Source of the DNA: a virus
Taxonomy: Duplodnaviria; Caudoviricetes
DNA: 27,071 nucleotides
Reading direction: 5' to 3' (one strand)
IMG/VR virus record: IMGVR_UViG_3300031228_000025
Location: 1 to 27,071 of that record
The notes beneath the pieces were generated by a model. It searched no databases. It saw only the letters and a list, made by a program, of their open reading frames with translations, and had not been told where the DNA came from. Shown here piece by piece: positions 3 to 25,759 of this stretch. Made by a program: the position numbers and the translations under genes. The first letter of the stretch is position 1, and every line of letters begins with the position of its first letter.

Positions 3-809
3 CTCAGCGGCCAGACACTCGAGGAGGCCCTCGCCACCCCGTGGGAGGAGCACCTGCGCCGGGACCTCCGCGCCCTGCTCGACTGCGAGGCGGTCGTGGT
101 CCTGGACGGGTGGGCCAGGAGCCGGGGCGCCCTGCTGGAGGTCGAGACCGCCCTGCGGCTCGGGATGCCCGTGTACCAGACGATCCGCCACGGCCCCGAC
201 CCCGAGGACCTGCGCCTCGAGGGGCTGGACGAGGCGACGATCGCCCAGGTCGTGGAGGGCGCCGGCCGGGCGCTGGACTTCGAGCGGACCCTGGAGCGCA
301 TCACCGAGACCGTCCAGACCACCGTGGTGGAGGAGGGCTGGTCCGCTGGTGAGGAGCCGAACGACGGCAATGGGTTCGGCGTGGATCAGGAGCCCTCGGC
401 CGACCCGCCCCGGATCATCAACACGAGGACGGGCCTGGGCGTGTCCACGGGCGGCAACTCCCCCGACGTCGTGGTGGACCCGGCCACCGGCGCCATGAAG
501 GCCGACGGCCGCAAGCCGCGGACCGACCTCCTGCCGCCGCTGCCGCTGCTCGACATCGCGGAGGTCCTGGAGTTCGGGTCCCGCAAGTACGCCGACCGCA
601 ACTGGGAGAGGGGCTTCGCCTGGGGCCGGCCGTACGGAGCCCTCCTGCGGCACCTCCTCCAGTGGTGGGCCGGCGAGGACCTCGACGAGGAGACGGGCAT
701 GTCGCACCTGGCCCACGCCGGCTGCGACCTGCTCATGCTCCTGGAGTTCACCCACACGGAGGCGGGCACGGACGACCGCCCCCACCAGGTCCACGAGGAG
801 AACAACTGA
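3..809 (+). CDS. 5'-truncated fusion: DUF4406 (nucleoside deoxyribosyltransferase-like) N-terminal domain + dATP/dGTP diphosphohydrolase (DUF5664-type) C-terminal domain
   Basis: Frame is open from the window edge. WEEHLRRDLRALLDCEAVVVLDGWARSRGALLEVETALRLGMPV matches the DUF4406 pattern. KADGRKPRTDLLP...VLEFGSRKYADRNWERG...LRHLLQWWAGEDLDEETGMSHLAHA matches the DUF5664 pattern. Confidence 0.8.
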   Translation, partial: LSGQTLEEALATPWEEHLRRDLRALLDCEAVVVLDGWARSRGALLEVETALRLGMPVYQTIRHGPDPEDLRLEGLDEATIAQVVEGAGRALDFERTLERITETVQTTVVEEGWSAGEEPNDGNGFGVDQEPSADPPRIINTRTGLGVSTGGNSPDVVVDPATGAMKADGRKPRTDLLPPLPLLDIAEVLEFGSRKYADRNWERGFAWGRPYGALLRHLLQWWAGEDLDEETGMSHLAHAGCDLLMLLEFTHTEAGTDDRPHQVHEENN

Positions 810-1693
810 TGGCCCAGCTCATCCGCATAGGGAACCTCCAGGGCGAGTACCCCGCCCTGGTCGAGCTCGTCATGGAGGAGGGCCGCCCGGCCGCGCCCCG
901 GGGCCTGCCGACCAGGGAGCTCCTGGACGTGACCCTGCACTTCGTGGACACCACGAACCTGCTGCCCGTCGGCACGGGGCGGAAGCTGTCCACGACCCTG
1001 AACGCCTACGCCGCGGCGGCCCTGGTCGCCGGGCGCCACCTGCCGAAGATGGCCCACGCCATCGCGCCCGGCCTGGCCGCCTTCGAGGCGGACGGGGTCG
1101 ACCGCGAGCGCTACGGCCCGCGGACGTTCAGCCAGGTGACGGGCGTCGTCCAGCACCTGCTGGCCGACCCGGACACCCGCGAGGCGATCGCCGTGCTCCA
1201 GCCGCCGCGGCTCCCCACGGCGGACGGGGGCAAGGACTTCCCCTGCACGACCTCCATCCAGTTCCTCCTCCGGGACGGGGCCCTCCACATGACGGTCTCG
1301 ATGCGCTCCAACGACGTGTGGCACGGGCTGAGCGGGGACGCCTGGGTCTTCGGCCAGCTCCAGCACACCCTGGCCTGGGCGCTCGGCGTCCGGCCGGGCG
1401 CCTACACCCACCACGCGGCCAGCCTCCACGTCTACGAGTCCGACGTCCCCAAGGCCCGGTGGCTCCACGCCCCCGACCGGGAGGGCCTGCTCCACGTCCA
1501 GGGCTTCCGGGCCGACTACCTCGACGAGGGGCCGCTCTCCGACCCTGGGCACCCGCTCCACCGGCTCGACGACGCGCGCTGGCTGGCAGATTCGGCCCTC
1601 GGCCGGCGCACGGGGCCCCTGGAGCCGCCGCCGGGCGATCGGGGGGTAATGTGGTACCAGGACCGGCTGCGGCCGTTCTGGGGCCCCGCATGA
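809..1693 (+). CDS. Thymidylate synthase-superfamily enzyme, dCMP hydroxymethylase/methylase-like
   Basis: TGATG coupling at 807-811. Motifs DFPCT..IQF, MRSNDVWHGLSGD and SLHVY are present. Asp occupies the position equivalent to E. coli ThyA Asn177. Confidence 0.85.
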   Translation: MAQLIRIGNLQGEYPALVELVMEEGRPAAPRGLPTRELLDVTLHFVDTTNLLPVGTGRKLSTTLNAYAAAALVAGRHLPKMAHAIAPGLAAFEADGVDRERYGPRTFSQVTGVVQHLLADPDTREAIAVLQPPRLPTADGGKDFPCTTSIQFLLRDGALHMTVSMRSNDVWHGLSGDAWVFGQLQHTLAWALGVRPGAYTHHAASLHVYESDVPKARWLHAPDREGLLHVQGFRADYLDEGPLSDPGHPLHRLDDARWLADSALGRRTGPLEPPPGDRGVMWYQDRLRPFWGPA

Positions 1694-7791: not shown

Positions 7792-8315
7792 TGGCCGTCG
7801 CCGCCTTCGCACCCGCCGGCGCCAAGTGCACGGGGTGCACCTGGGCCGCCGAGAACCACGAGCCCTCCGCCCTGCCCGCCCGGCTGGGCCTCACCTGCGG
7901 CGAGTACTCGCCGGCCCAGGCCGCCCGCCCGGCGGGCATCGACTGGGACGCCCTCGAGCGCCAGGCCCAGCACGAGAGCGGCCGCAACGCCGCCGGCGAC
8001 CAAGTCTACCGGACCACCAAGGGCTTCAAGACCTCGGTCTCCGACTACGTGGCCGACCCCGACGGCGAGGGGCACCTGCTCTGGACCGGGGACTTCGTCA
8101 CCGTGACCCGCGAGAACGGGACGGAGACCTTCCCCCACCCGACCCGGGGCGGCACCCACGAGCTCTGCGGCAAGGGCCACCGCTTCGTGGCCCGGGCCTT
8201 CAAGGAGGAGGCGCTGGGCTACCCGCTCCCGCAGGACGTGTTCGTCGTGAACTCCTGCGGCCGCCACGAGTGCGTGGCCCCCACGCACTTCCGGCTCCAG
8301 TACACCAAGGACTGA
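7791..8315 (+). CDS. Protein with C-terminal degenerate HNH / Zn-binding-loop domain
   Basis: LLWTG...GHRFVA...GYPLPQDVFVVNSCGRHECVAPTHF resembles the HNH_3 pattern (WtG..aHR..v.H.C....CvNP.HL), with H->N and N->A. Confidence 0.6.
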   Translation: MAVAAFAPAGAKCTGCTWAAENHEPSALPARLGLTCGEYSPAQAARPAGIDWDALERQAQHESGRNAAGDQVYRTTKGFKTSVSDYVADPDGEGHLLWTGDFVTVTRENGTETFPHPTRGGTHELCGKGHRFVARAFKEEALGYPLPQDVFVVNSCGRHECVAPTHFRLQYTKD

Positions 8316-8731
8316 TGGCGGCCGTCGCCAGCACCCGGGCCTCCCTGCTCGCCCAGACGACCGGGGAGAGCCGGGCGGAGGTGGCCCTGAGGCGCGCCGT
8401 GAGGGCCGTGGGGGCCCTCGGCTACCGCAAGGGGTACAGATTCAAGGGCGTGCCCGGCCTGGCACGCCGGTCGGCCGACATGGCCTGGGTCGGCCGGCGC
8501 CTGGCGGTCTTCTACGACGGGTGCATGTGGCACGGGTGCCCCGAGCACTGTGACCGCCGCTGGGGCGGGAGCGACCCCGGGTTCTGGGAGGCTAAGATCG
8601 CCCGGACCAGGGCGCGCGACGCCGAGACGACGGAGGCCCTCGAGGCCGCCGGCTGGACGGTCGTCAGGGTGTGGGAGCACGAGGACACGGGCCGGGCGGT
8701 GGCCCGGGTGATGGAGGCCCTCGGCCGATAG
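8315..8731 (+). CDS. vsr: Very short patch repair (Vsr) endonuclease
   Basis: E..LRR, ADMAW..RRLAVFYDGCMWHGCPEH, FWEAKIARTRARD, GWTVVRVWEHE. Confidence 0.9.
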   Translation: MAAVASTRASLLAQTTGESRAEVALRRAVRAVGALGYRKGYRFKGVPGLARRSADMAWVGRRLAVFYDGCMWHGCPEHCDRRWGGSDPGFWEAKIARTRARDAETTEALEAAGWTVVRVWEHEDTGRAVARVMEALGR

Positions 8732-8835: not shown

Positions 8836-9111
8836 TCAGCCCTCGGCGGCGGTCGTCATCCCGGCGTACAGGTCGACCGCCTCGTTGACCTCGCGCTCGT
8901 GGGTCGCCGGGCTGTAGACCGACCGGCGGATGCCGAGCACGGTCGCCACGAGGGCCAGAAGGTTGAAGGCCGTGGTCACGGCGGCCGGCACGTCGATGGC
9001 CGGGGCGACGCCGAAGTTGGCCAGGATCAGGAGCATGCCCGAGGCGGTCGAGATGACCAGGGCGGGCTCGAGGGCCAGCATTCGCTGGACGAGGTTGCGG
9101 AGGGCGTTCAT
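8836..9111 (-). CDS. Holin (two transmembrane segments)
   Basis: MNALRNLVQRMLALEPALVI..., two hydrophobic helices, RRSVYSP tail. Immediately downstream of the endolysin. Confidence 0.75.
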   Translation of the reverse strand: MNALRNLVQRMLALEPALVISTASGMLLILANFGVAPAIDVPAAVTTAFNLLALVATVLGIRRSVYSPATHEREVNEAVDLYAGMTTAAEG

Positions 9112-10160
9112 CAGGTCTCCTTGATGCGCTGTGCTTCGGCGGCCGCGATGCGGTTCCGCTCGGCTGTGGCGGCCTCTTCCTGGGCCGCCTGGACGTCCCC
9201 CTCGGTGATCCCGGTCGGGACCTCCTTGACGACCTCCTTGACCACCGTCTCGGGCGGCGGGAAGCCGTAGTTGGGCGAGGGCGGGACACGGGTGCCCGAG
9301 ATAGCAACGAGGCCCGGGCCTTCCTTGTCGTTGCCCCGCGCGTCCACGACCAGGAGCTCGTCGGACCCGGTCGGCGGATACTTCACCTGACGATAGCGCC
9401 CGTCGCTCGACTCCGCGGTCGACCGGACGCGCTCCCGGCTGGTGAACTCCTTCTTGTTGCCGGCGCCGTCGTAGAACACGGTGCCGAGGGCCGTCGCGGT
9501 CTTGGCGACGGTCCACCAGTCCTCCTGGACCGGCTTCCAGAACTGCATGTCGTCGTCTCCTTGTGGTGGTGCGGGGGCGGCCCCGTAGAGCTGGGCGATG
9601 AGCAGGTCCTGCCCGCCGCTGGTGGCGTCCGTCTCGTACCGGGTCGCCGGCTGAATCCAGCCGTGCCCGAAGTGCGGCCGGTCGATGACGGTCGGGTGGG
9701 CGATCAGCTGCCGGGCGAGCTCCCTGACGTCGGCCGCGAACACCGGGTCCCTCATGGCGGCGGCCAGGTCGGCCGGCATCCCGCAGAACGAGACGCTGAT
9801 GCAGTCTGCGTTGGGGTCGTTGTCGCGGGCCAGGATGCGGTGGACCTCGGTGAACCGGGCCTGCTCCCTGGCGCTCCCCGTCTTCGGCTTGAAGGCGAGG
9901 GACGGGTTCATGGAGTGGGACGCCCGGCCGACCGGCACGATCCACATTGCGACCGTCGAGGTGCCCTCCCGGAAGAGGAGGATGTGGTATGAGGCGTTGA
10001 CGGTCGCCTTGGTGTTGACGAAGTGCCGGATGGTCGACTCGGCGCCGGCCCGGCCGGTCCCGCCGGCGGTCCAGTGCCAGGCCAGGCCGCGCGGGGCGAA
10101 CCCGGCGACGACCGACTGCGGGACCCCCGCGGCGTAGTTCTGCTCGACCCTGAGGGCCAT
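9111..10160 (-). CDS. Endolysin: N-acetylmuramoyl-L-alanine amidase (Amidase_2-like) + C-terminal domain
   Basis: LAWHWTAG, ASYHILL, ASHS, ISVSFCG and FGHGWI motifs. Pro-rich linker. Lysis-cassette position. Confidence 0.8.
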   Translation of the reverse strand: MALRVEQNYAAGVPQSVVAGFAPRGLAWHWTAGGTGRAGAESTIRHFVNTKATVNASYHILLFREGTSTVAMWIVPVGRASHSMNPSLAFKPKTGSAREQARFTEVHRILARDNDPNADCISVSFCGMPADLAAAMRDPVFAADVRELARQLIAHPTVIDRPHFGHGWIQPATRYETDATSGGQDLLIAQLYGAAPAPPQGDDDMQFWKPVQEDWWTVAKTATALGTVFYDGAGNKKEFTSRERVRSTAESSDGRYRQVKYPPTGSDELLVVDARGNDKEGPGLVAISGTRVPPSPNYGFPPPETVVKEVVKEVPTGITEGDVQAAQEEAATAERNRIAAAEAQRIKET

Positions 10161-18864: not shown

Positions 18865-19181
18865 CAGGGAAGCCTCCCCAGGACAAGCTCCTGGTGGGTG
18901 GGCCGGAACTCGTCCGGCATGGGGGCGGCCTGGAGCACCCGGTAGGCCTGAGCGCCGATGGCCACTCGGCTGAGCATGGGGATGTCGAGCTCCGGCCGGA
19001 CCAGCACGACGTACGCCGCGACCTCCTCGTTGCCCTCGGGGTTCATGACGAGGCGGGTCGTGGCCTGGACCGATGCGTGGACCGGGCCCACCGGGTCCGC
19101 GTAGCCGGGCCCCCGGCTGCCGCCGGCGGCGTACGGCTCGAAGGTGATCCGGTCGCGCAGCATGTGCCGCGGGATTCTCAT
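18864..19181 (-). CDS. Head closure (stopper) protein
   Basis: 105 aa, beta-rich. Located between the adaptor and neck genes. Confidence 0.7.
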   Translation of the reverse strand: MRIPRHMLRDRITFEPYAAGGSRGPGYADPVGPVHASVQATTRLVMNPEGNEEVAAYVVLVRPELDIPMLSRVAIGAQAYRVLQAAPMPDEFRPTHQELVLGRLP

Positions 19182-19594
19182 TCGATCCAGACACGGGCGC
19201 TGAGCAGGCCCGCCTCCACCAGCCGGTCCCGCGCCCGGGCGCCGAGGCGGCCCGGCAGCTTCCCGATCTGGAGCCGCCCGGCGTTCGCGAATCCGGTCAG
19301 CCCGACGATGTCGTGCTCCTCGCCGAACTCGAGCCAGAACTCCACCTGCGCGCAGGCCGCGTCGGCGAGCGCCTCCTGGTAGTCGTCCTGGGTCCAGGGC
19401 GTGACGGGGTGGGCGGGGATGAGGTGGCCCTGGGACAGCCGGCCGTCATAGGCCTGCTGGGCCCGGCCGCGCGTCGCCGTGTCGATGAGCTGGGAGGCGC
19501 GCCCGAGCATCCGGGTGGCCTCCTCCTCCTCGGGCGCCGTGTAGGTGGCGCCGAGCCAGCTGGCGAGCTGGTCGGGGGTGGCGTAGGTGGTCAT
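19178..19594 (-). CDS. Head-to-tail adaptor
   Basis: YATPDQL...LGRASQLID...ADAACAQVEFW...ARDRLVEAGLL pattern. Confidence 0.8.
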   Translation of the reverse strand: MTTYATPDQLASWLGATYTAPEEEEATRMLGRASQLIDTATRGRAQQAYDGRLSQGHLIPAHPVTPWTQDDYQEALADAACAQVEFWLEFGEEHDIVGLTGFANAGRLQIGKLPGRLGARARDRLVEAGLLSARVWIE

Positions 19595-20667
19595 GATCCC
19601 TCCAGGCGGGCCTCGAGGTCCGCCCTGCTGCCGCGGGCCGACTTGCCCAGGGCCTTCACGGCCGCCTGGAGCTCGCGATAGCCCATGGGTGGCTCATCTG
19701 ACTCGTCCATGCGCTGAGAGGCCTCCACGGGCCCCGTGTCGCGCCGTGCGCCGTCCATGAGCCTGGCGGCCATGTCCACGTCCTCCCCGGCGGAGTCGAC
19801 CTCGCGGAGGCCGGACTTCGGGTTGGCCAGGGCGTAGTGCCGCAGCGCGTCGGCGTCCTTGCCGGACGCGGTGTATCGGCCGCCGGCCAGCTTGTAGCTC
19901 CGGCCCTCCATCAGAATCCGCAGGGCGGGGTACTTCGTGTTCCGGAAGGTGGCCTGTTCGTTGCTCATCACATGGGCATCATAGGCCAGGGGCACCTCGT
20001 AGCGGGAGGGCCGCGTGAACTGGGACCGGACCCAGGTCCCCGCCGCGCCGTCCCTCCACCAGGAGTCGTCGCTCGACAGGAACAGGCCCTCGGTCAGGTG
20101 CCGGCTCTTCCCGTCCTTGGCCGGGCGCGACGGGGGCCGGTGGGCGTTCCCGTACATCGTCCGCCACTGGGGCGGGATGTCGGTCGTCCAGGCCAGGGTG
20201 TCCCGGGCGGTCTCGAGCAGCAGGGACCGGTCCATGACCACCGGCACGTGCAGCTCGTACGAGAGGGGGTCCTCGATGCCGCGCTCCTCCAGCGCCTTCT
20301 TCGTCTGCCTCAGGCTCTTGCGCCAGGGGCCCGGCTTCACCCTGGCCAGGTGCTCGGCCAGTGGCCCGCGGTGCAGGAAGGGGATGGAGCGGACCGGGCC
20401 CGTCACGAAGAAGTCGTCGTTCATGATGAGCAGCCGGTCGGCGTCGATCGCCTCGCAAGCGAGGCGCAGGTTGTCCGGCACGTTGCGCCACTTGTCCCCC
20501 GCCAGGTTGCCCTGGACGAACTCGACCCCCTTCAGCCATCGGGGCAGGTACCCCACGACCCACACCCGGGCGTGCGGCACGTTCTCCTCGAGGGTCCTGA
20601 GCGAGTAGCGCAGCTCGTCGTTGAACTCCCCCGGCCGGGTGATGTAGACGACGTCGGGCGGAATCAT
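19591..20667 (-). CDS. Stealth-family (CR2-like) phosphotransferase fused to a C-terminal SAP/HeH-like head-module protein
   Basis: DVVY, NDELRYSLRTLEENVP, LLIMNDDFF and YELHVP motifs. C-terminus YRELQAAVKALGKSARGSRADLEARL is SAP/HeH-like. Confidence 0.75.
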   Translation of the reverse strand: MIPPDVVYITRPGEFNDELRYSLRTLEENVPHARVWVVGYLPRWLKGVEFVQGNLAGDKWRNVPDNLRLACEAIDADRLLIMNDDFFVTGPVRSIPFLHRGPLAEHLARVKPGPWRKSLRQTKKALEERGIEDPLSYELHVPVVMDRSLLLETARDTLAWTTDIPPQWRTMYGNAHRPPSRPAKDGKSRHLTEGLFLSSDDSWWRDGAAGTWVRSQFTRPSRYEVPLAYDAHVMSNEQATFRNTKYPALRILMEGRSYKLAGGRYTASGKDADALRHYALANPKSGLREVDSAGEDVDMAARLMDGARRDTGPVEASQRMDESDEPPMGYRELQAAVKALGKSARGSRADLEARLEGS

Positions 20668-21338
20668 GCCGGGGGTAGGCCCTCCCAGGAGCCCAGGCGG
20701 TCGGCCCCGTGCCGGCCGACGAACGCGGCCCGGACGATCGCGTCGTGCGGGTCGGGATGGGCCCGGAGGACGTGATGGGGCGCGATGTGCCGGGCCCTGA
20801 CGCCGGCCCTGGTCGTCCGGTACCCCGCCTTCCGGGCGCGGATGGCCCAGTCCATGTCGGCCATCCTCCGCATCCGGTGGCCGTCCAGCAGCCCGACCAT
20901 GGGGAGGATGGCCCGGGGGAACAGGTACCAGGCTCCCCAGAACGAGCCGCGCATCGTCGCGTCCCAACGGCGGCGGGTCACGCCGTCGGCCTTGTAGTCG
21001 AGGGGGCTCGCGATGCCGTCGTTCCCCGCGGCCTCCAGCAGCGCCGGCAGCCACCCCCCGGGGACCCTGACGTCGATGCTGCCGACCACCACGTGGGCGC
21101 CCCCGGCCTCGGTGGCCAGGAGGGCGTGATTGACGGCGAAGGCCCAGCCCTGGGGAGGGTCCGCCCGGATGACGAGGTCCGCCCGCCCTGAGTTGCGGGG
21201 CAGGGGCCCAGAGTGGGACAGGACCAGCCGGCGCTCGCCCGCGGCCGTCGTCTCGAGGATGTTGTCGATGCAGTCCTCGGTCATCCTCAGGCTCGCCCCG
21301 TCGAAGGCCCAGGAGGGGATGATGATGTCGGTGCTCAT
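20664..21338 (-). CDS. GT2-like (GT-A fold) glycosyltransferase
   Basis: TDIIIPSW, GWAFAVNHAL, VVGSIDVRV...WLPALL, VGLLD...ADMDWAIRARKAGY. ATGA-coupled on both sides. Confidence 0.8.
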   Translation of the reverse strand: MSTDIIIPSWAFDGASLRMTEDCIDNILETTAAGERRLVLSHSGPLPRNSGRADLVIRADPPQGWAFAVNHALLATEAGGAHVVVGSIDVRVPGGWLPALLEAAGNDGIASPLDYKADGVTRRRWDATMRGSFWGAWYLFPRAILPMVGLLDGHRMRRMADMDWAIRARKAGYRTTRAGVRARHIAPHHVLRAHPDPHDAIVRAAFVGRHGADRLGSWEGLPPA

Positions 21339-21748
21339 CCGGTGAGCCGCTCCTTGATCTGGGTCGTGGACTGGAGCCTGAGCGGGATGAAGGCCAGGGT
21401 CAGCTCCAGCTCGTCGAAGTCCGCCGGGGTCATGCCGATCTGGCCGAGGTAGTCCTTGCCGCGGCCCGGCATCCAGTCGTCCCCGATCGCGAGGACGTCC
21501 GGCCGCACCCGGTAGACCAGCTCGCGCCCTGGGCCGTCGTTGACCTCGACCCGGTGGCCCAGCCTGGCCACGAGCTCCAGGCGCTCCCCCAGGGAGTACG
21601 CCGGGCGGCGTCCCTTGTAGGTCTCGACGAACTCGTCGGAGTTGACCCCGACGACCAGCTCGTCGCCGAGCTCGAGGGCCTTGAGGAACAGGTACGCGTG
21701 GCCCAGGTGCGGCACGTCGAACGTGCCGATGGTCAGGACGGTTCTCAA
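21335..21748 (-). CDS. Cytidylyltransferase, glycerol-3-phosphate cytidylyltransferase (TagD)-like
   Basis: TIGTFDVPHLGH (HxGH), GVNSDEF...KG, ER, GDDW and STTQIKER motifs. TTG start at 21748 with GGAGG 8 nt upstream. The ORF track starts it at 21808. Confidence 0.85.
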   Translation of the reverse strand: MRTVLTIGTFDVPHLGHAYLFLKALELGDELVVGVNSDEFVETYKGRRPAYSLGERLELVARLGHRVEVNDGPGRELVYRVRPDVLAIGDDWMPGRGKDYLGQIGMTPADFDELELTLAFIPLRLQSTTQIKERLTG

Positions 21749-21822
21749 GGGGCGGACCTCCAGGGGGCTCTTGGGGATGAGAGGGGCCCCGTCCCCCACG
21801 GGGCCCATCTCCCAGCATAGCG

Positions 21823-21853
21823 CGAGGGGCCGGGCGTCGTGCCCGGCCCCTCG
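21823..21853 (-). terminator. Perfect 13-bp GC hairpin after the tail tube gene
   Basis: CGAGGGGCCGGGC-GTCGT-GCCCGGCCCCTCG. No U-tract. Confidence 0.65.
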
Positions 21854-21874
21854 GCCGTTCTGGGTCGGGTTCGG

Positions 21875-22324
21875 TCAGCTCGAGGCGCTGGCCGGGGTGT
21901 AGGTGGGCTCGCCGGTCATCTCGATCGACGCCGCCCAGGAGGCCGCGTCGTTGTGGCCGCCGCCGGGCCGCGTGAGCTCCGCCGTCGCCGCGAACTGGAG
22001 GGCGTTCCCGCCCGGGTCCGTGATGCGGTAGGTCTCCTCCGCGGCCAGGCCCATCTCCTGGGCGCTGGTCTCGATGTACTCCTGCCCCGGGTCCTTCTCG
22101 CCGCTCTCGACGTCGACGAGCGCGAAACCCGCCAGCTCCCACGAGTCGCCGCGCTGCGCGACCAGGTGGGTCGGCCGCCCGTTCTCGTCGAAGCCGGTCG
22201 TGTCGGCCCGCTCCGTGGAGGGGGAGTGCGTGAGGGTGTTGAGGCCGCCGATCGGGGTCCAGGTGTCCACGGCCGTCTGGACCTCAATGGTCAGGTCGCG
22301 GGCCAGGAACTTCGTCCGTGCCAT
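21875..22324 (-). CDS. Major tail tube protein
   Basis: WTPIGGL..L...ADTTGFDENG...DPGQ...YRITDPGG...GGGHNDAASWAASIEMTGEP. GAGGAG RBS. Confidence 0.8.
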   Translation of the reverse strand: MARTKFLARDLTIEVQTAVDTWTPIGGLNTLTHSPSTERADTTGFDENGRPTHLVAQRGDSWELAGFALVDVESGEKDPGQEYIETSAQEMGLAAEETYRITDPGGNALQFAATAELTRPGGGHNDAASWAASIEMTGEPTYTPASASS

Positions 22325-22357
22325 CAGGTTGTTCTCCTCGTTGGTGTGAGGCTCATC

Positions 22358-22382
22358 GGGGCGGGCTCGACCTGCCCGCCCC
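22358..22382 (-). terminator. 9-bp GC hairpin after the major capsid gene
   Basis: GGGGCGGGC-TCGACCT-GCCCGCCCC. Confidence 0.5.
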
Positions 22383-22393
22383 TAGCCCGATGG

Positions 22394-23362
22394 TCAGCTG
22401 GACGCCGAGCCGAAGTCGCTGCCGACGTTCACGATCTTGCCGTGGTGGAACTCGGCCCCGTAGGCCAGCCCCACCTCGCCGTAAATCTGCTCGGCGTCGG
22501 CGGACCCGGTCTTGCCCAGCGGCTCCTGGAACAGGAAGCCCTTGCCCGGGATCATGAGGAAGACGGGCGCCAGCTCCTCGAGGGAGACCACGGCGAGCTC
22601 GTCGACCGGCATGTACCGGTTGAGCATGATGTTCAGGAGGCCGAAGTCGGTCTCGATCCGGACCACGTTGGCCCCGCCCACGTTCGCGGTCGTGGGCGTG
22701 TAGCCCGCGTCCGTGATGTAGGCCTTCGTCAGCTGGCGCTTGAGCGTCGAGTTGACGATGACGGTCCGGGTCTCGCCGGCCGCGATGCCGCCGTTGTCCC
22801 AGATGTCCTGGAGCAGGTCCTCGAACAGGACGCGCGTCAGCGTCGCCCCGTTCAGGTCGGTCACATTCGTCGTGATCGCCTCGAGCAGCCCGCGGGTCTT
22901 GCGCGGGGTCGCGTTGGTGGACGGCTCCGCGAAGGTGCCGTTGATGAACGCGTACTCCAGGTCGCGGGCGATCTGAGTGAGCGCCTGCGCGCTCTGCCAG
23001 GCCATCTCGTTCTGGACGTTGCTCGCGCCCGGCGTCAGGACGTCCGCATCCATCTGCCCGACCGCCGCCTGCTTGGTGTACGAGACCTCGACGGACTCGT
23101 GCACGATCTGGACCACGTTGTGGTCGAACGCCCGGACGCGGTTCTCCGGATCGGGGGCGTCCGCGCCCTCGAGGCGGGCCCGGTCACTGGCGTCCCGGAG
23201 GTCGTAGAACGACCACTCGAAGCGCTTGGCGTTCGTCTGCTCGCCGCCAGTCAGCCCGCCGATCGCCGTGATGAGCGGCGTGTCGGTGGGGCTGATGCTG
23301 AACAGCTCGCCCACGAAGTTGGGGAGGTTGAAGGTCGTCCCCTGACCCACGATGCCTGCCAT
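22394..23362 (-). CDS. Major capsid protein (SU10/DUF5309-like, HK97 fold)
   Basis: ISPTDTPL, NVVQIVHESVEVSYT, IARDLEYAFING, RKTRGL, IETDFG, LGKTGSAD..QIYGEVGL. Follows the scaffold gene. Confidence 0.9.
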   Translation of the reverse strand: MAGIVGQGTTFNLPNFVGELFSISPTDTPLITAIGGLTGGEQTNAKRFEWSFYDLRDASDRARLEGADAPDPENRVRAFDHNVVQIVHESVEVSYTKQAAVGQMDADVLTPGASNVQNEMAWQSAQALTQIARDLEYAFINGTFAEPSTNATPRKTRGLLEAITTNVTDLNGATLTRVLFEDLLQDIWDNGGIAAGETRTVIVNSTLKRQLTKAYITDAGYTPTTANVGGANVVRIETDFGLLNIMLNRYMPVDELAVVSLEELAPVFLMIPGKGFLFQEPLGKTGSADAEQIYGEVGLAYGAEFHHGKIVNVGSDFGSASS

Positions 23363-24160: not shown

Positions 24161-25759
24161 CTAGGAGCCCTCTCCCTCGTCCTGGGCGATCGCCCGCTCG
24201 CTGCGGACGCTCGTCTCCCCGGTCTGGGAGTCGGTCTCCGTGGTCATGCCGCCCGGCGCCGGTGGCTCCGGCTTGGCGGCCTGCTGCTCTTCATGGATGC
24301 GCTTGACCTCTGCGTCCACCTCCTCGCGGCTCCAGTGGGGATGGATGATCCGGACCTTGACCTCGGTGCTGGCGGCCTGGGCCGCGCTCAGCTGGGCCAC
24401 CGTCGAGGCCAGCTCCACCGGGTCCTCGGGCACTCCGGCGCCGAGCCCCACCTCCACGGTGAGGTCCCCCAGGCCGGGCCCTCTGAAGACCTCGGCGTCC
24501 ACGGCCATCAAGTTGGCCATGAGGCGCTGGATGCTCGGCCCCCACCACTGGCTCTTGCGCTTCAGGGTGAGGATGGTCTTGTTCTCGCGGATGCGGAGGG
24601 CGCTGCCGCTCTCGGCGCGGCCCTCGATCCGGATGCCGAACGTCTGCGGGGAGTAGCCGCTGTTGGAGACGATGCGCTCGACCAGCTCGATCGCCGTCTC
24701 GCGGTGCTCGAGGTACCGAATCTCGAACTGCTGGGCGAGCATGGAGCGCGCGCCGGCCTCGGCCGCGCCGGGCTCCATGTCCATCGGCTGGTAGACCTCG
24801 TGGTCGATGTCGACGTGCCCGCCCTCGTCGATGAAGTCGCGGGGCACGATGATCCGGGCCTTGCCCAGGCGAATGTCGCGCATCCACGAGGCGTACACCT
24901 CATCCAGGGCGTCGAACAAGCCCTCGGACCCGGAGAAGTCGGACAGCCCGAGGCCGCTCTGCCGCCACAGCCGGTTGGGCCGCATGTTGGGGATGTACTC
25001 GACGTCCAGGTTCGGGAAGGGCAGCTCGACCAGGGGCTCGAACCCGGTCAGGGCCAGGAGCACGTCCTCGGCGAGCCGCGTGCCGATCGCGGTCTTGGTG
25101 CCCTTGTACAGGGCGTGCTGCACGGTGGCCTTGCCGCCGCTCCCGACGGGCGCCGGGCGGTGGAGCTCGAGGTGCCGATAGATGCCCTGGTCGGTCTCCT
25201 CGACGACGCGCCACAGGAGCACCGACCGGAGCATGCCGTGCTTGAACTCAGGGATGGCCTGGTCGGCCTGGGCGATCGCCGGGATGGGGTGGTCGGCCAG
25301 CTCCTTGTCCCAGGCCGGGAACAGGTAGGCTCCGCCCATGGCCGCGGCGCTCTCGGCGCCCTCCACGAGGCGGTTGTAGAGGCCTGAGCGCTCCATGATG
25401 GTCCTCATGCGCTCCTCGGCGTCCTTGGCCTTCCTGGGCACCCTGCCGGACGCGTGGGCCTCCTTGACGCGGATACTGGGGGCCTCGCCGAAGAGCAGGG
25501 CGCCGGACACGGCCGCGAGGTCGCCCGCGACCGGCACGTGGAGCTGGGCCTTCTGGGCCTCGGGCTCCTTGCCGATCCTGCTCCAGAACTTGAACCAGCG
25601 GCTCCGGCCGCCGGAGCTCGCGCCGCCGTAGACCTCGAGCAGCCGGTCGGGGTCGCCCGAGTACCAGGCGCTCCACTCGGACATCTTCGCGTATTCGGTC
25701 GCCTGGGCCTTCGGCGGCCATGGTGCCGATGCGTCTGTGGGGAGGTTCATCCTCGACAT
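24161..25759 (-). CDS. Portal protein (SPP1 gp6/A118-like)
   Basis: WSAWYSGDP, LHVPVAGDLA, YIPN, GLSDF, DALDEVYASWMRDIRLGKARIIVP, GYSPQTFG. Directly after the terminase. Confidence 0.92.
   Translation of the reverse strand: MSRMNLPTDASAPWPPKAQATEYAKMSEWSAWYSGDPDRLLEVYGGASSGGRSRWFKFWSRIGKEPEAQKAQLHVPVAGDLAAVSGALLFGEAPSIRVKEAHASGRVPRKAKDAEERMRTIMERSGLYNRLVEGAESAAAMGGAYLFPAWDKELADHPIPAIAQADQAIPEFKHGMLRSVLLWRVVEETDQGIYRHLELHRPAPVGSGGKATVQHALYKGTKTAIGTRLAEDVLLALTGFEPLVELPFPNLDVEYIPNMRPNRLWRQSGLGLSDFSGSEGLFDALDEVYASWMRDIRLGKARIIVPRDFIDEGGHVDIDHEVYQPMDMEPGAAEAGARSMLAQQFEIRYLEHRETAIELVERIVSNSGYSPQTFGIRIEGRAESGSALRIRENKTILTLKRKSQWWGPSIQRLMANLMAVDAEVFRGPGLGDLTVEVGLGAGVPEDPVELASTVAQLSAAQAASTEVKVRIIHPHWSREEVDAEVKRIHEEQQAAKPEPPAPGGMTTETDSQTGETSVRSERAIAQDEGEGS

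What the first reader, a model, noticed from the sequence alone, without database searches (positions are those of the whole stretch)
19591..23362. Candidate virion phosphoglycan/teichoic-acid-like coating system: TagD-like + GT2 + Stealth cassette behind the capsid and tail tube genes
Seen: three translationally coupled genes (cytidylyltransferase 21335-21748, GT2 20664-21338, Stealth-like 19591-20667) are inserted inside the virion module between capsid/tail tube and the head-tail adaptor. Established: TagD makes CDP-glycerol, Stealth proteins form phosphodiester-linked capsule polymers, and some mycobacteriophages O-glycosylate the C-termini of their capsid and tail tube proteins using their own glycosyltransferases. 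Inference: this phage activates a polyol- or sugar-phosphate and builds a phosphodiester-linked, cell-wall-polymer-like glycan on its own particle. That would be chemically different from neutral virion glycans, and I know of no description of it.
Basis: partly seen in the sequence, partly recalled or inferred. Interest (0 to 1): 0.9.

Follow-up and report, generated by a model that had tools for sequence, protein, structure and literature searches.

The report
Phage phospho-sugar coat on serine tags
This phage carries three sugar-handling enzyme genes directly behind capsid and tail-tube genes whose proteins both end in serines; across related phages the serine ends and such enzymes come and go together, so it likely coats its own particle with a short phosphate-linked sugar, probably not the teichoic-acid-like polymer first proposed.

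Summary
Observation confirmed: three coupled genes (HxGH nucleotidyltransferase, GT2-fold transferase, compact Stealth phosphotransferase) fill the slot between tail tube and head-tail adaptor; capsid and tube both end in -ASS. Virion targeting is well supported: among 29 capsid-relative groups, 8 of 11 Ser-ending capsids have a GT/Stealth gene versus 0 of 18 others; the closest relative fills the same slot with unrelated GTs; in cluster K mycobacteriophages the Ser tag appears only with Stealth. The teichoic-acid reading is not supported: the TagD model is not met, no TagF is seen, and the nucleotidyltransferase travels with GT-A enzymes (39 of 46 loci), not with Stealth (1 of 46). Best model (inferred): Stealth primes the serines with sugar-1-phosphate from a host UDP-sugar; the nucleotidyltransferase-GT2 pair adds a further unit of unknown identity. 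A small domain fused to the last enzyme of the slot recurs on unrelated enzymes. The scan has already noted Stealth+GT virion cassettes on other DNA (gut phages); the nucleotidyltransferase module, the fused domain and cultured test phages (Fionnbharth) are added here. Nothing is measured.

The parts
22394..23362 (-). Major capsid protein (SU10 type), C-terminus ...GSDFGSASS; presumed acceptor
   Evidence: Pfam SU10_MCP, phrog_1328, translation
22325..22393 (-). GC-rich hairpin between capsid and tube genes
   Evidence: fold -29.1 kcal/mol, no shuffle control
21875..22324 (-). Tail tube protein placed directly behind the capsid, C-terminus ...TPASASS; presumed acceptor
   Evidence: phrog_3884 E 7.5e-20, translation; same order in L093
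21749..21874 (-). Intergenic region with two strong hairpins and the GGAGG site of the next gene; may lower cassette expression relative to capsid/tube (inference)
   Evidence: no shuffle control
21335..21748 (-). HxGH nucleotidyltransferase (CTP_transf_like), substrate unresolved; partner of the GT2 protein
   Evidence: neighbour survey
20664..21338 (-). Soluble GT2-fold glycosyltransferase with S-x-D where GT-A enzymes usually have D-x-D (usual motif recalled)
19993..20667 (-). Compact Stealth-family phosphotransferase domain (aa 1-225); N83-D84-D85 and H140 align with GNPTAB N406-D408 and H956
19591..19968 (-). Fused small phage domain (aa ~234-296) plus SAP-like helix; same domain is fused to unrelated GTs in relatives
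19178..19594 (-). Head-tail adaptor closing the slot
   Evidence: phrog_541
24161..25759 (-). Portal protein, also Ser-ended (...EGEGS); possible further acceptor

Best explanation
The three genes form an exchangeable late-operon cassette that likely attaches a short phosphate-linked glycan to the C-terminal serines of the phage's own capsid and tail-tube proteins. Step 1 (inferred): the Stealth domain transfers a hexose/HexNAc-1-phosphate from a host UDP-sugar straight onto the serine tail, giving Ser-O-P-sugar. Step 2 (inferred from co-occurrence): the HxGH nucleotidyltransferase activates a phosphorylated host metabolite and the GT2-fold enzyme, its usual partner, adds that unit to the primed tail; the metabolite is not identified (a sugar-1-phosphate fits the GT2 fold best, glycerol-3-phosphate remains possible at about 30%). 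Step 3 (speculative): the small domain fused to the last enzyme brings it to the assembling particle. Shown: gene order, coupling, family and fold assignments, intact catalytic residues, co-variation of Ser tails and enzymes. Virion as target about 0.85; this order of steps about 0.55.
For: Family: A1 profile hits GNPTAB E 1.4e-10 and CpsY; model pLDDT 97, the first 12 listed PDB matches are CpsY/GNPTAB; D84, D85, H140 invariant in 99 of 99. Target: of 29 capsid-relative groups (80 loci) 11 end in Ser and 8 of these have a GT or Stealth gene (one, L102, only weakly, E 1e-4), against 0 of 18 non-Ser groups (17 of the 18 searched as whole records); conservative Fisher p 1e-4 and six changes on the capsid tree built without the tails. 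In Stealth loci 29 of 37 identified capsids end in Ser and 7 more have it second-last, background 106 of 805 genes. Closest relative L093 (capsid 77%) has capsid..PAS, tube..PAS and unrelated GTs in the same slot. Stealth suffices: it follows the capsid gene directly in 13 of 62 locus groups; Fionnbharth (complete) has a GSGS capsid end and Stealth as the only GT-like gene found; 7 of 7 Stealth-free cluster K phages lack the capsid Ser end; complete G041 has Stealth, no PF00535 and a seven-Ser tail. NTase-GT pairing: GT-A-type gene within two genes in 39 of 46 viral NTase loci (21 Pfam/profile-backed), Stealth in 1 of 46. Same trio behind a Ser-ended capsid of another family in L092, and NTase+GT-A+Stealth in L034.
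Against: No biochemical data. Characterised Stealth enzymes act on sugar hydroxyls, not protein serine (PMC9388126 passages for GNPT; others recalled); in Stealth-only phages a host or undetected GT could prime. GNPT R986, H959 and N1151 have no direct sequence counterpart (an invariant R169 may substitute, not tested in 3D). Three Ser-ended groups show no enzyme (L100, L108, L114; records 12-23% complete). Capsids beside NTase+GT loci without Stealth end in Ser in only 5 of 11 seen, so that module may also serve other targets. 32 of 70 Stealth loci had no capsid in view, one call was dropped and two are doubtful. Several Stealth genes lie far from structural genes (Gordonia OneUp, Gaia, Pumpernickel). 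Related phages are not independent samples; the two Stealth-positive K phages may be one gain. TM4's tube has Ser second-last without Stealth.
Confidence: 0.55

Rival explanations
1. Same target, other order: the GT2-fold enzyme primes the serine with a sugar and Stealth caps or extends it with sugar-1-phosphate, as Stealth enzymes do on glycans.
For: GT model resembles ppGalNAc-transferases as well as WrtF; 7 of 8 enzyme-bearing Ser-ended capsid relatives use GTs without Stealth; known Stealth acceptors are sugars.
Against: Stealth occurs with Ser tags in complete genomes with no other GT found (Fionnbharth, G041) and directly behind the capsid gene in 13 of 62 groups.
Confidence: 0.2
2. One reading: the nucleotidyltransferase makes CDP-glycerol (or another CDP-polyol) and Stealth, with the GT, builds a teichoic-acid-like polymer on the virion.
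For: HxGH, D38, R56 and a D-W motif shared with TagD; 1coz E 3e-9; GNPT shows little base selectivity (PMC9388126 passage); no kinase or isomerase for a rarer substrate among 88 neighbour proteins, so a common host metabolite is likely; the trio recurs in L092 and L034.
Against: TagD model not met, 38 vs 165 bits; ethanolamine-phosphate and other cytidylyltransferases score as well; Stealth in 1 of 46 NTase loci and 0 of 15 complete or near-complete NTase genomes; NTase in 1 of 62 Stealth groups; NTase-linked Stealth proteins not a clade and without diagnostic residues; no TagF family hit in 343 neighbour proteins scanned.
Confidence: 0.12
3. The enzymes modify the host envelope (receptor masking) late in infection and sit in the operon for timing only.
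For: Stealth and TagD-like enzymes are envelope enzymes in bacteria (passages; general knowledge); some homologues lie outside virion modules.
Against: No membrane segment; co-variation with serine tails of capsid and tube is unexplained; fusion to a virion-module domain.
Confidence: 0.06
4. The NTase-GT2 pair glycosylates a modified DNA base made by the thymidylate-synthase-like gene at 809-1693.
For: The window encodes a PF00303 protein and a dNTP diphosphohydrolase domain; phages glycosylate modified cytosine using their own nucleotidyltransferases (PMC13326640 passages).
Against: PF00303 in 0 of 27 other NTase/Stealth/GT records, 14 of them at least 90% complete plus 5 GenBank genomes (a single-protein search gave 1 weak hit in 50); cassette is in the late operon on the other strand.
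Confidence: 0.05

Closest known systems
Mycobacteriophage virion O-glycosylation (Che8, Corndog, Myrna; Freeman et al. 2023, PMID 37329881; paper not held, known from passages in PMC12363180, PMC11256854, PMC11600133)
   Same: Phage-encoded soluble transferases, capsid and tail tube as targets, gene clusters often near structural genes; C-terminal O-linkage is recalled from the abstract, not read here.
   Different: No GenBank phage matches the window GT and no cluster F, O or C phage is among the 53 Stealth hits; a Stealth phosphotransferase and a nucleotidyltransferase point to a phosphodiester link and a phage-made donor.
Stealth family (GNPTAB, M. tuberculosis CpsY)
   Same: Fold, CR2 NDD motif, catalytic His, CR4-like end.
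   Different: Single 225-aa domain, cytoplasmic, inferred protein-serine acceptor; several sugar-pocket residues differ.
TagD/TagF teichoic-acid synthesis
   Same: Small HxGH nucleotidyltransferase of the same superfamily.
   Different: TagD model not met; no TagF; partner is a GT2-fold enzyme.
Ser-linked phosphoglycosylation in Leishmania/Dictyostelium and phosphodiester-capped type A flagellin glycans (recalled, no call)
   Same: Sugar-1-phosphate on serine, or GT + cytidylyltransferase + phosphotransferase acting on a filament protein.
   Different: Eukaryotic secretory or flagellar substrates and other enzyme families; not compared here.
GT-GT-nucleotidyltransferase trio of Streptomyces phages Beuffert, Samisti12 and kin
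   Same: Homologous nucleotidyltransferase (36-40%) coupled to a GT-A gene.
   Different: Not in the virion module, no Stealth in the genome; function undescribed in the records.

Membership tests
Stealth phosphotransferase | Profile/fold match to Stealth catalytic domain | tested here: met
   (Pfam CR2 alone below cut-off)
Stealth phosphotransferase | Metal-binding NDD and catalytic His | tested here: met
   N83-D84-D85, H140
Stealth phosphotransferase | Phosphate-binding Arg986 and Asn1151 equivalents | tested here: inconclusive
   no direct sequence match; invariant R169, D185, S198; structural alignment job not obtained
Stealth phosphotransferase | Transfers sugar-1-phosphate from a UDP-sugar | not testable with these tools
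   needs assay
TagD glycerol-3-phosphate cytidylyltransferase | TIGR01518 above cut-off | tested here: not met
   38.2 vs 165.4 bits
TagD glycerol-3-phosphate cytidylyltransferase | HxGH fold with TagD-like motifs | tested here: inconclusive
   HxGH and D-W kept; only one Lys in the substrate loop and a variable C-terminal loop (TagD residue roles recalled)
HldE-type heptose nucleotidyltransferase | TIGR02199 above cut-off; (F/L)xxGxSTT motif; heptose kinase/isomerase nearby | tested here: not met
   59.4 vs 181.5 bits; window lacks the Gly of the motif; none among 88 neighbours
GT2 / GT-A glycosyltransferase | GT-A fold and PF00535 in homologues | tested here: met
   (TM 0.70 to WrtF)
GT2 / GT-A glycosyltransferase | D-x-D metal motif | tested here: not met
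   S-x-D invariant in 16 of 16
Teichoic-acid-type polymer system | TagF-type CDP-polyol polymerase | tested here: not met
   no hit in window (record 45% complete) or neighbours
Phage virion glycosylation (Che8 type) | Phage GT genes coupled to Ser-ended capsid/tube | tested here: met
Phage virion glycosylation (Che8 type) | Homology to the characterised mycobacteriophage GTs | tested here: not met
   (sequence level only)
Phage virion glycosylation (Che8 type) | Glycan detected on virion proteins | not testable with these tools
   uncultured phage

The most novel reading that the evidence does not exclude
Tailed phages run a mix-and-match particle-coating kit: a minimal Stealth enzyme phosphoglycosylates protein serine directly, a docking domain that is swapped between unrelated enzymes tethers the writer to the particle, and a nucleotidyltransferase-GT-A module adds a polyol- or rare-sugar unit, giving an anionic wall-polymer-like coat; cultured phages such as Fionnbharth already carry the simplest form unnoticed.
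Probability: 0.3. Interest if true: 0.88.

Novelty: new variant of a known kind. Interest (0 to 1): 0.66.

Why it matters
Virion glycosylation has been shown only for a few mycobacteriophages, where it blunts antibody neutralisation (passages). A phosphate-linked coat written by a Stealth enzyme would be new chemistry for phage particles and a new acceptor class for Stealth enzymes, would annotate an orphan family (phrog_7999; 251 viral matches; 53 GenBank records), and gives a simple predictive rule (Ser tail = coated particle). It is testable now: Fionnbharth gp6 is a single-gene version in a cultured phage, with Ser-less cluster K relatives as natural controls.

Tried and rejected
Freeman et al. 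2023 could not be read. Searches for a printed phage Stealth or virion phosphoglycan found none (listings only; subscription papers are not covered). Window GT: no relative in viral contigs or GenBank phages, 2 other contigs in metagenomes; PDB sequence search uninformative (E 0.5). Stealth in bacterial genomes: 5 loci, not analysed beyond neighbours. Shared longest-contig lengths among Stealth, GT and NTase homologues (50922, 4267, 3343) hint at more trios but were not verified and are not counted. DNA-glycosylation rival tested and unsupported. Heptose reading unsupported. The wide search for the small fused domain never returned, the viral scan found only L093 and the Atlas gave leads under 0.9, so its range is open. 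No complex prediction or residue-level structural alignment was obtained, so docking of the domain and the R986 equivalent are untested. Gene calls in loci are from a simple script and cluster representatives only were scanned with Pfam.
Full report
Setting. The window is a whole linear IMG/VR record, 27,071 bases, estimated 45% complete, about 71% GC. The minus strand holds a siphovirus-type late operon (terminase, portal, scaffold, capsid, tube, cassette, adaptor, stopper, neck, terminator, chaperone, tape measure, Dit, Tal-like); the plus strand holds replication genes. The host is not established; the nearest cultured homologues of the Stealth gene are from actinobacterial phages.

Observation. 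Capsid and tube end in GSASS and PASASS.

What the proteins are. (a) Residues 1-225 of 20667-19591 belong to phrog_7999, unannotated. A 99-sequence profile hits GNPTAB (E 1.4e-10) and CpsY, and the model (pLDDT 97) has CpsY and GNPTAB as its first 12 listed PDB matches. N83-D84-D85 and H140 align with GNPT N406-D408 and the catalytic H956 (residue roles from passages of PMC9388126 and PMC11418123). R986, H959 and N1151 have no direct counterpart. It is a minimal Stealth phosphotransferase. (b) The middle gene has no Pfam hit, but 10 of 15 homologues carry PF00535 and the model (pLDDT 87) matches WrtF (TM 0.70), ppGalNAc-transferases and chondroitin polymerase. It has an invariant S-x-D. (c) The first gene is an HxGH nucleotidyltransferase that meets neither the TagD (38 vs 165 bits) nor the HldE model (59 vs 181); solved relatives using ethanolamine-phosphate, glycerol-phosphate and others score alike. 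'TagD-like' is a fold statement, not a substrate.

The target is likely the virion. Eighty loci with relatives of the capsid (of 88 found) fell into 29 groups at 85% identity. Eleven end in Ser; eight of these have a GT or Stealth gene (L093, L094, L095, L096, L097, L104, L155 group; L102 weakly), three do not but are 12-23% complete. None of 18 non-Ser groups has one; whole-record searches with PF00535 and the Stealth profile agree for 17 (L115 not held), five at least 90% complete. Fisher p is 1e-4 counting L102 as negative and leaving out L108; the enzyme label needs six changes on a capsid tree built without the tails, at least four forced by well-supported branches, so this is not one inherited block, though kin are not independent. 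From the other side, of 70 Stealth loci 37 had a complete capsid call: 29 end in Ser, 7 have Ser second-last, against 106 of 805 for all genes (32 had no capsid in view, one was dropped, two calls are doubtful). The closest relative, L093 (capsid 77% identical), keeps capsid-tube-slot-adaptor and Ser ends but fills the slot with two unrelated GT genes: the slot is exchangeable. Streptomyces phage TurkishDelight has GT - major tail - Stealth - adaptor with both proteins ending in Ser.

Stealth does not need the other two genes. It directly follows the capsid gene in 13 of 62 locus groups, and only 1 of 62 has the nucleotidyltransferase. In cluster K mycobacteriophages, Fionnbharth and Boilgate carry Stealth and end their capsids in GSGS and tubes in GSV/GSI; seven relatives without Stealth have no Ser at the capsid end, and only TM4 has one near the tube end. 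Complete genome G041 has Stealth, no PF00535 and a seven-Ser capsid tail. The simplest inference is that Stealth writes on serine itself; an undetected or host primer is not excluded.

The nucleotidyltransferase belongs with the GT. Of 76 viral loci, 73 gave a gene call, in 46 groups; 39 have a GT-A-type gene within two genes (21 by Pfam or profile, the rest by clusters with weaker evidence), 31 immediately adjacent, and one has Stealth. Fifteen complete or near-complete genomes with the nucleotidyltransferase lack Stealth. L091 shows the NTase-GT pair, L092 the full trio in another order behind a GGSS-ended capsid of another family, L034 a version with different GTs. NTase-linked Stealth proteins do not form a clade and show no distinguishing active-site column. 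No TagF, heptose kinase or isomerase appeared among neighbours; one LicD did. Against a purely virion role for this module: capsids next to NTase loci end in Ser in 5 of 11 cases, and Streptomyces phages keep GT-GT-NTase outside the virion genes.

A recurring fused domain. Residues ~234-296 match (45-46%) both a free-standing 89-aa gene and the C-terminus of the GT2-GT4-like protein in L093; the profile also finds the end of Stealth homologue P0007 (E 1e-14) and of a GT in L096 (E 5e-4). Two further Stealth homologues carry other small C-terminal extensions. Repeated fusion to unrelated enzymes suggests a docking tag, but being the next gene in the operon could also explain it; binding is untested.

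Rivals. DNA glycosylation was taken seriously because the window has a thymidylate-synthase-like gene and a dNTP diphosphohydrolase, but PF00303 is absent from 27 other cassette-bearing records. Envelope modification does not explain the serine co-variation.

Literature and earlier notes. Freeman et al. 2023 was not available; I saw passages citing it, and its supplements may list Stealth-like genes. Six searches (listings only) showed no report of a phage Stealth enzyme or phosphate-linked virion glycan. The scan's own notes describe Stealth+GT cassettes with Ser tags in at least eight other gut-phage windows and a nonulosonate version; these are unchecked and were read after my Ser-tail tests. 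None matched by sequence.

Verdict. Real, recurrent and likely a virion-coating cassette with a phosphodiester link; a new variant of phage virion glycosylation. Interest 0.66.

Noticed in passing
window 3-809 and 809-1693 (+): DUF4406 + dATP/dGTP diphosphohydrolase fusion next to a thymidylate-synthase-like gene with Asp where ThyA has Asn (ThyA position recalled): probable DNA base modification, separate from the cassette.
   Followed up: partly
L093:6151-9537: Same slot holds a GT4-like gene, a GT2-GT4-like fusion ending in the small domain, and a free copy of that domain.
   Followed up: partly
L002:1273-1959 (Fionnbharth gp6) and other K4 phages: Unannotated Stealth gene in cultured phages with Ser-tagged capsid; ready test system.
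   Followed up: yes
L025:2904-5175; L032:6627-8626; L076: Other partners between capsid and Stealth: GT2 + TupA-like ATP-grasp; nitroreductase + GT-like gene.
   Followed up: no
L082:8641-9315; L175:7971-12030; L007:4953-10657: Stealth beside GT29-like genes; beside an epimerase and GT in a Mycobacterium gordonae contig; and heading a GT/acetyl-/methyltransferase run in Rasputia.
   Followed up: no
L254:2232-3941; L255:2241-3941: GT-GT-nucleotidyltransferase trio in many large Streptomyces phages, outside the virion module, function open.
   Followed up: partly
L246:2956-3492: LicD-family gene next to the nucleotidyltransferase and portal in one viral locus.
   Followed up: no
window 24161-25759 and 19591-20667: Portal and the Stealth fusion itself also end in Ser.
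   Followed up: no
window 9111-10160 (-) and 8315-8731 (+): Lysin-position ORF with no Pfam hit; Vsr-like endonuclease.
   Followed up: no
L015:42-497: Acb2/Tad1-like anti-defence gene directly upstream of Stealth in a cluster-K-like phage.
   Followed up: no
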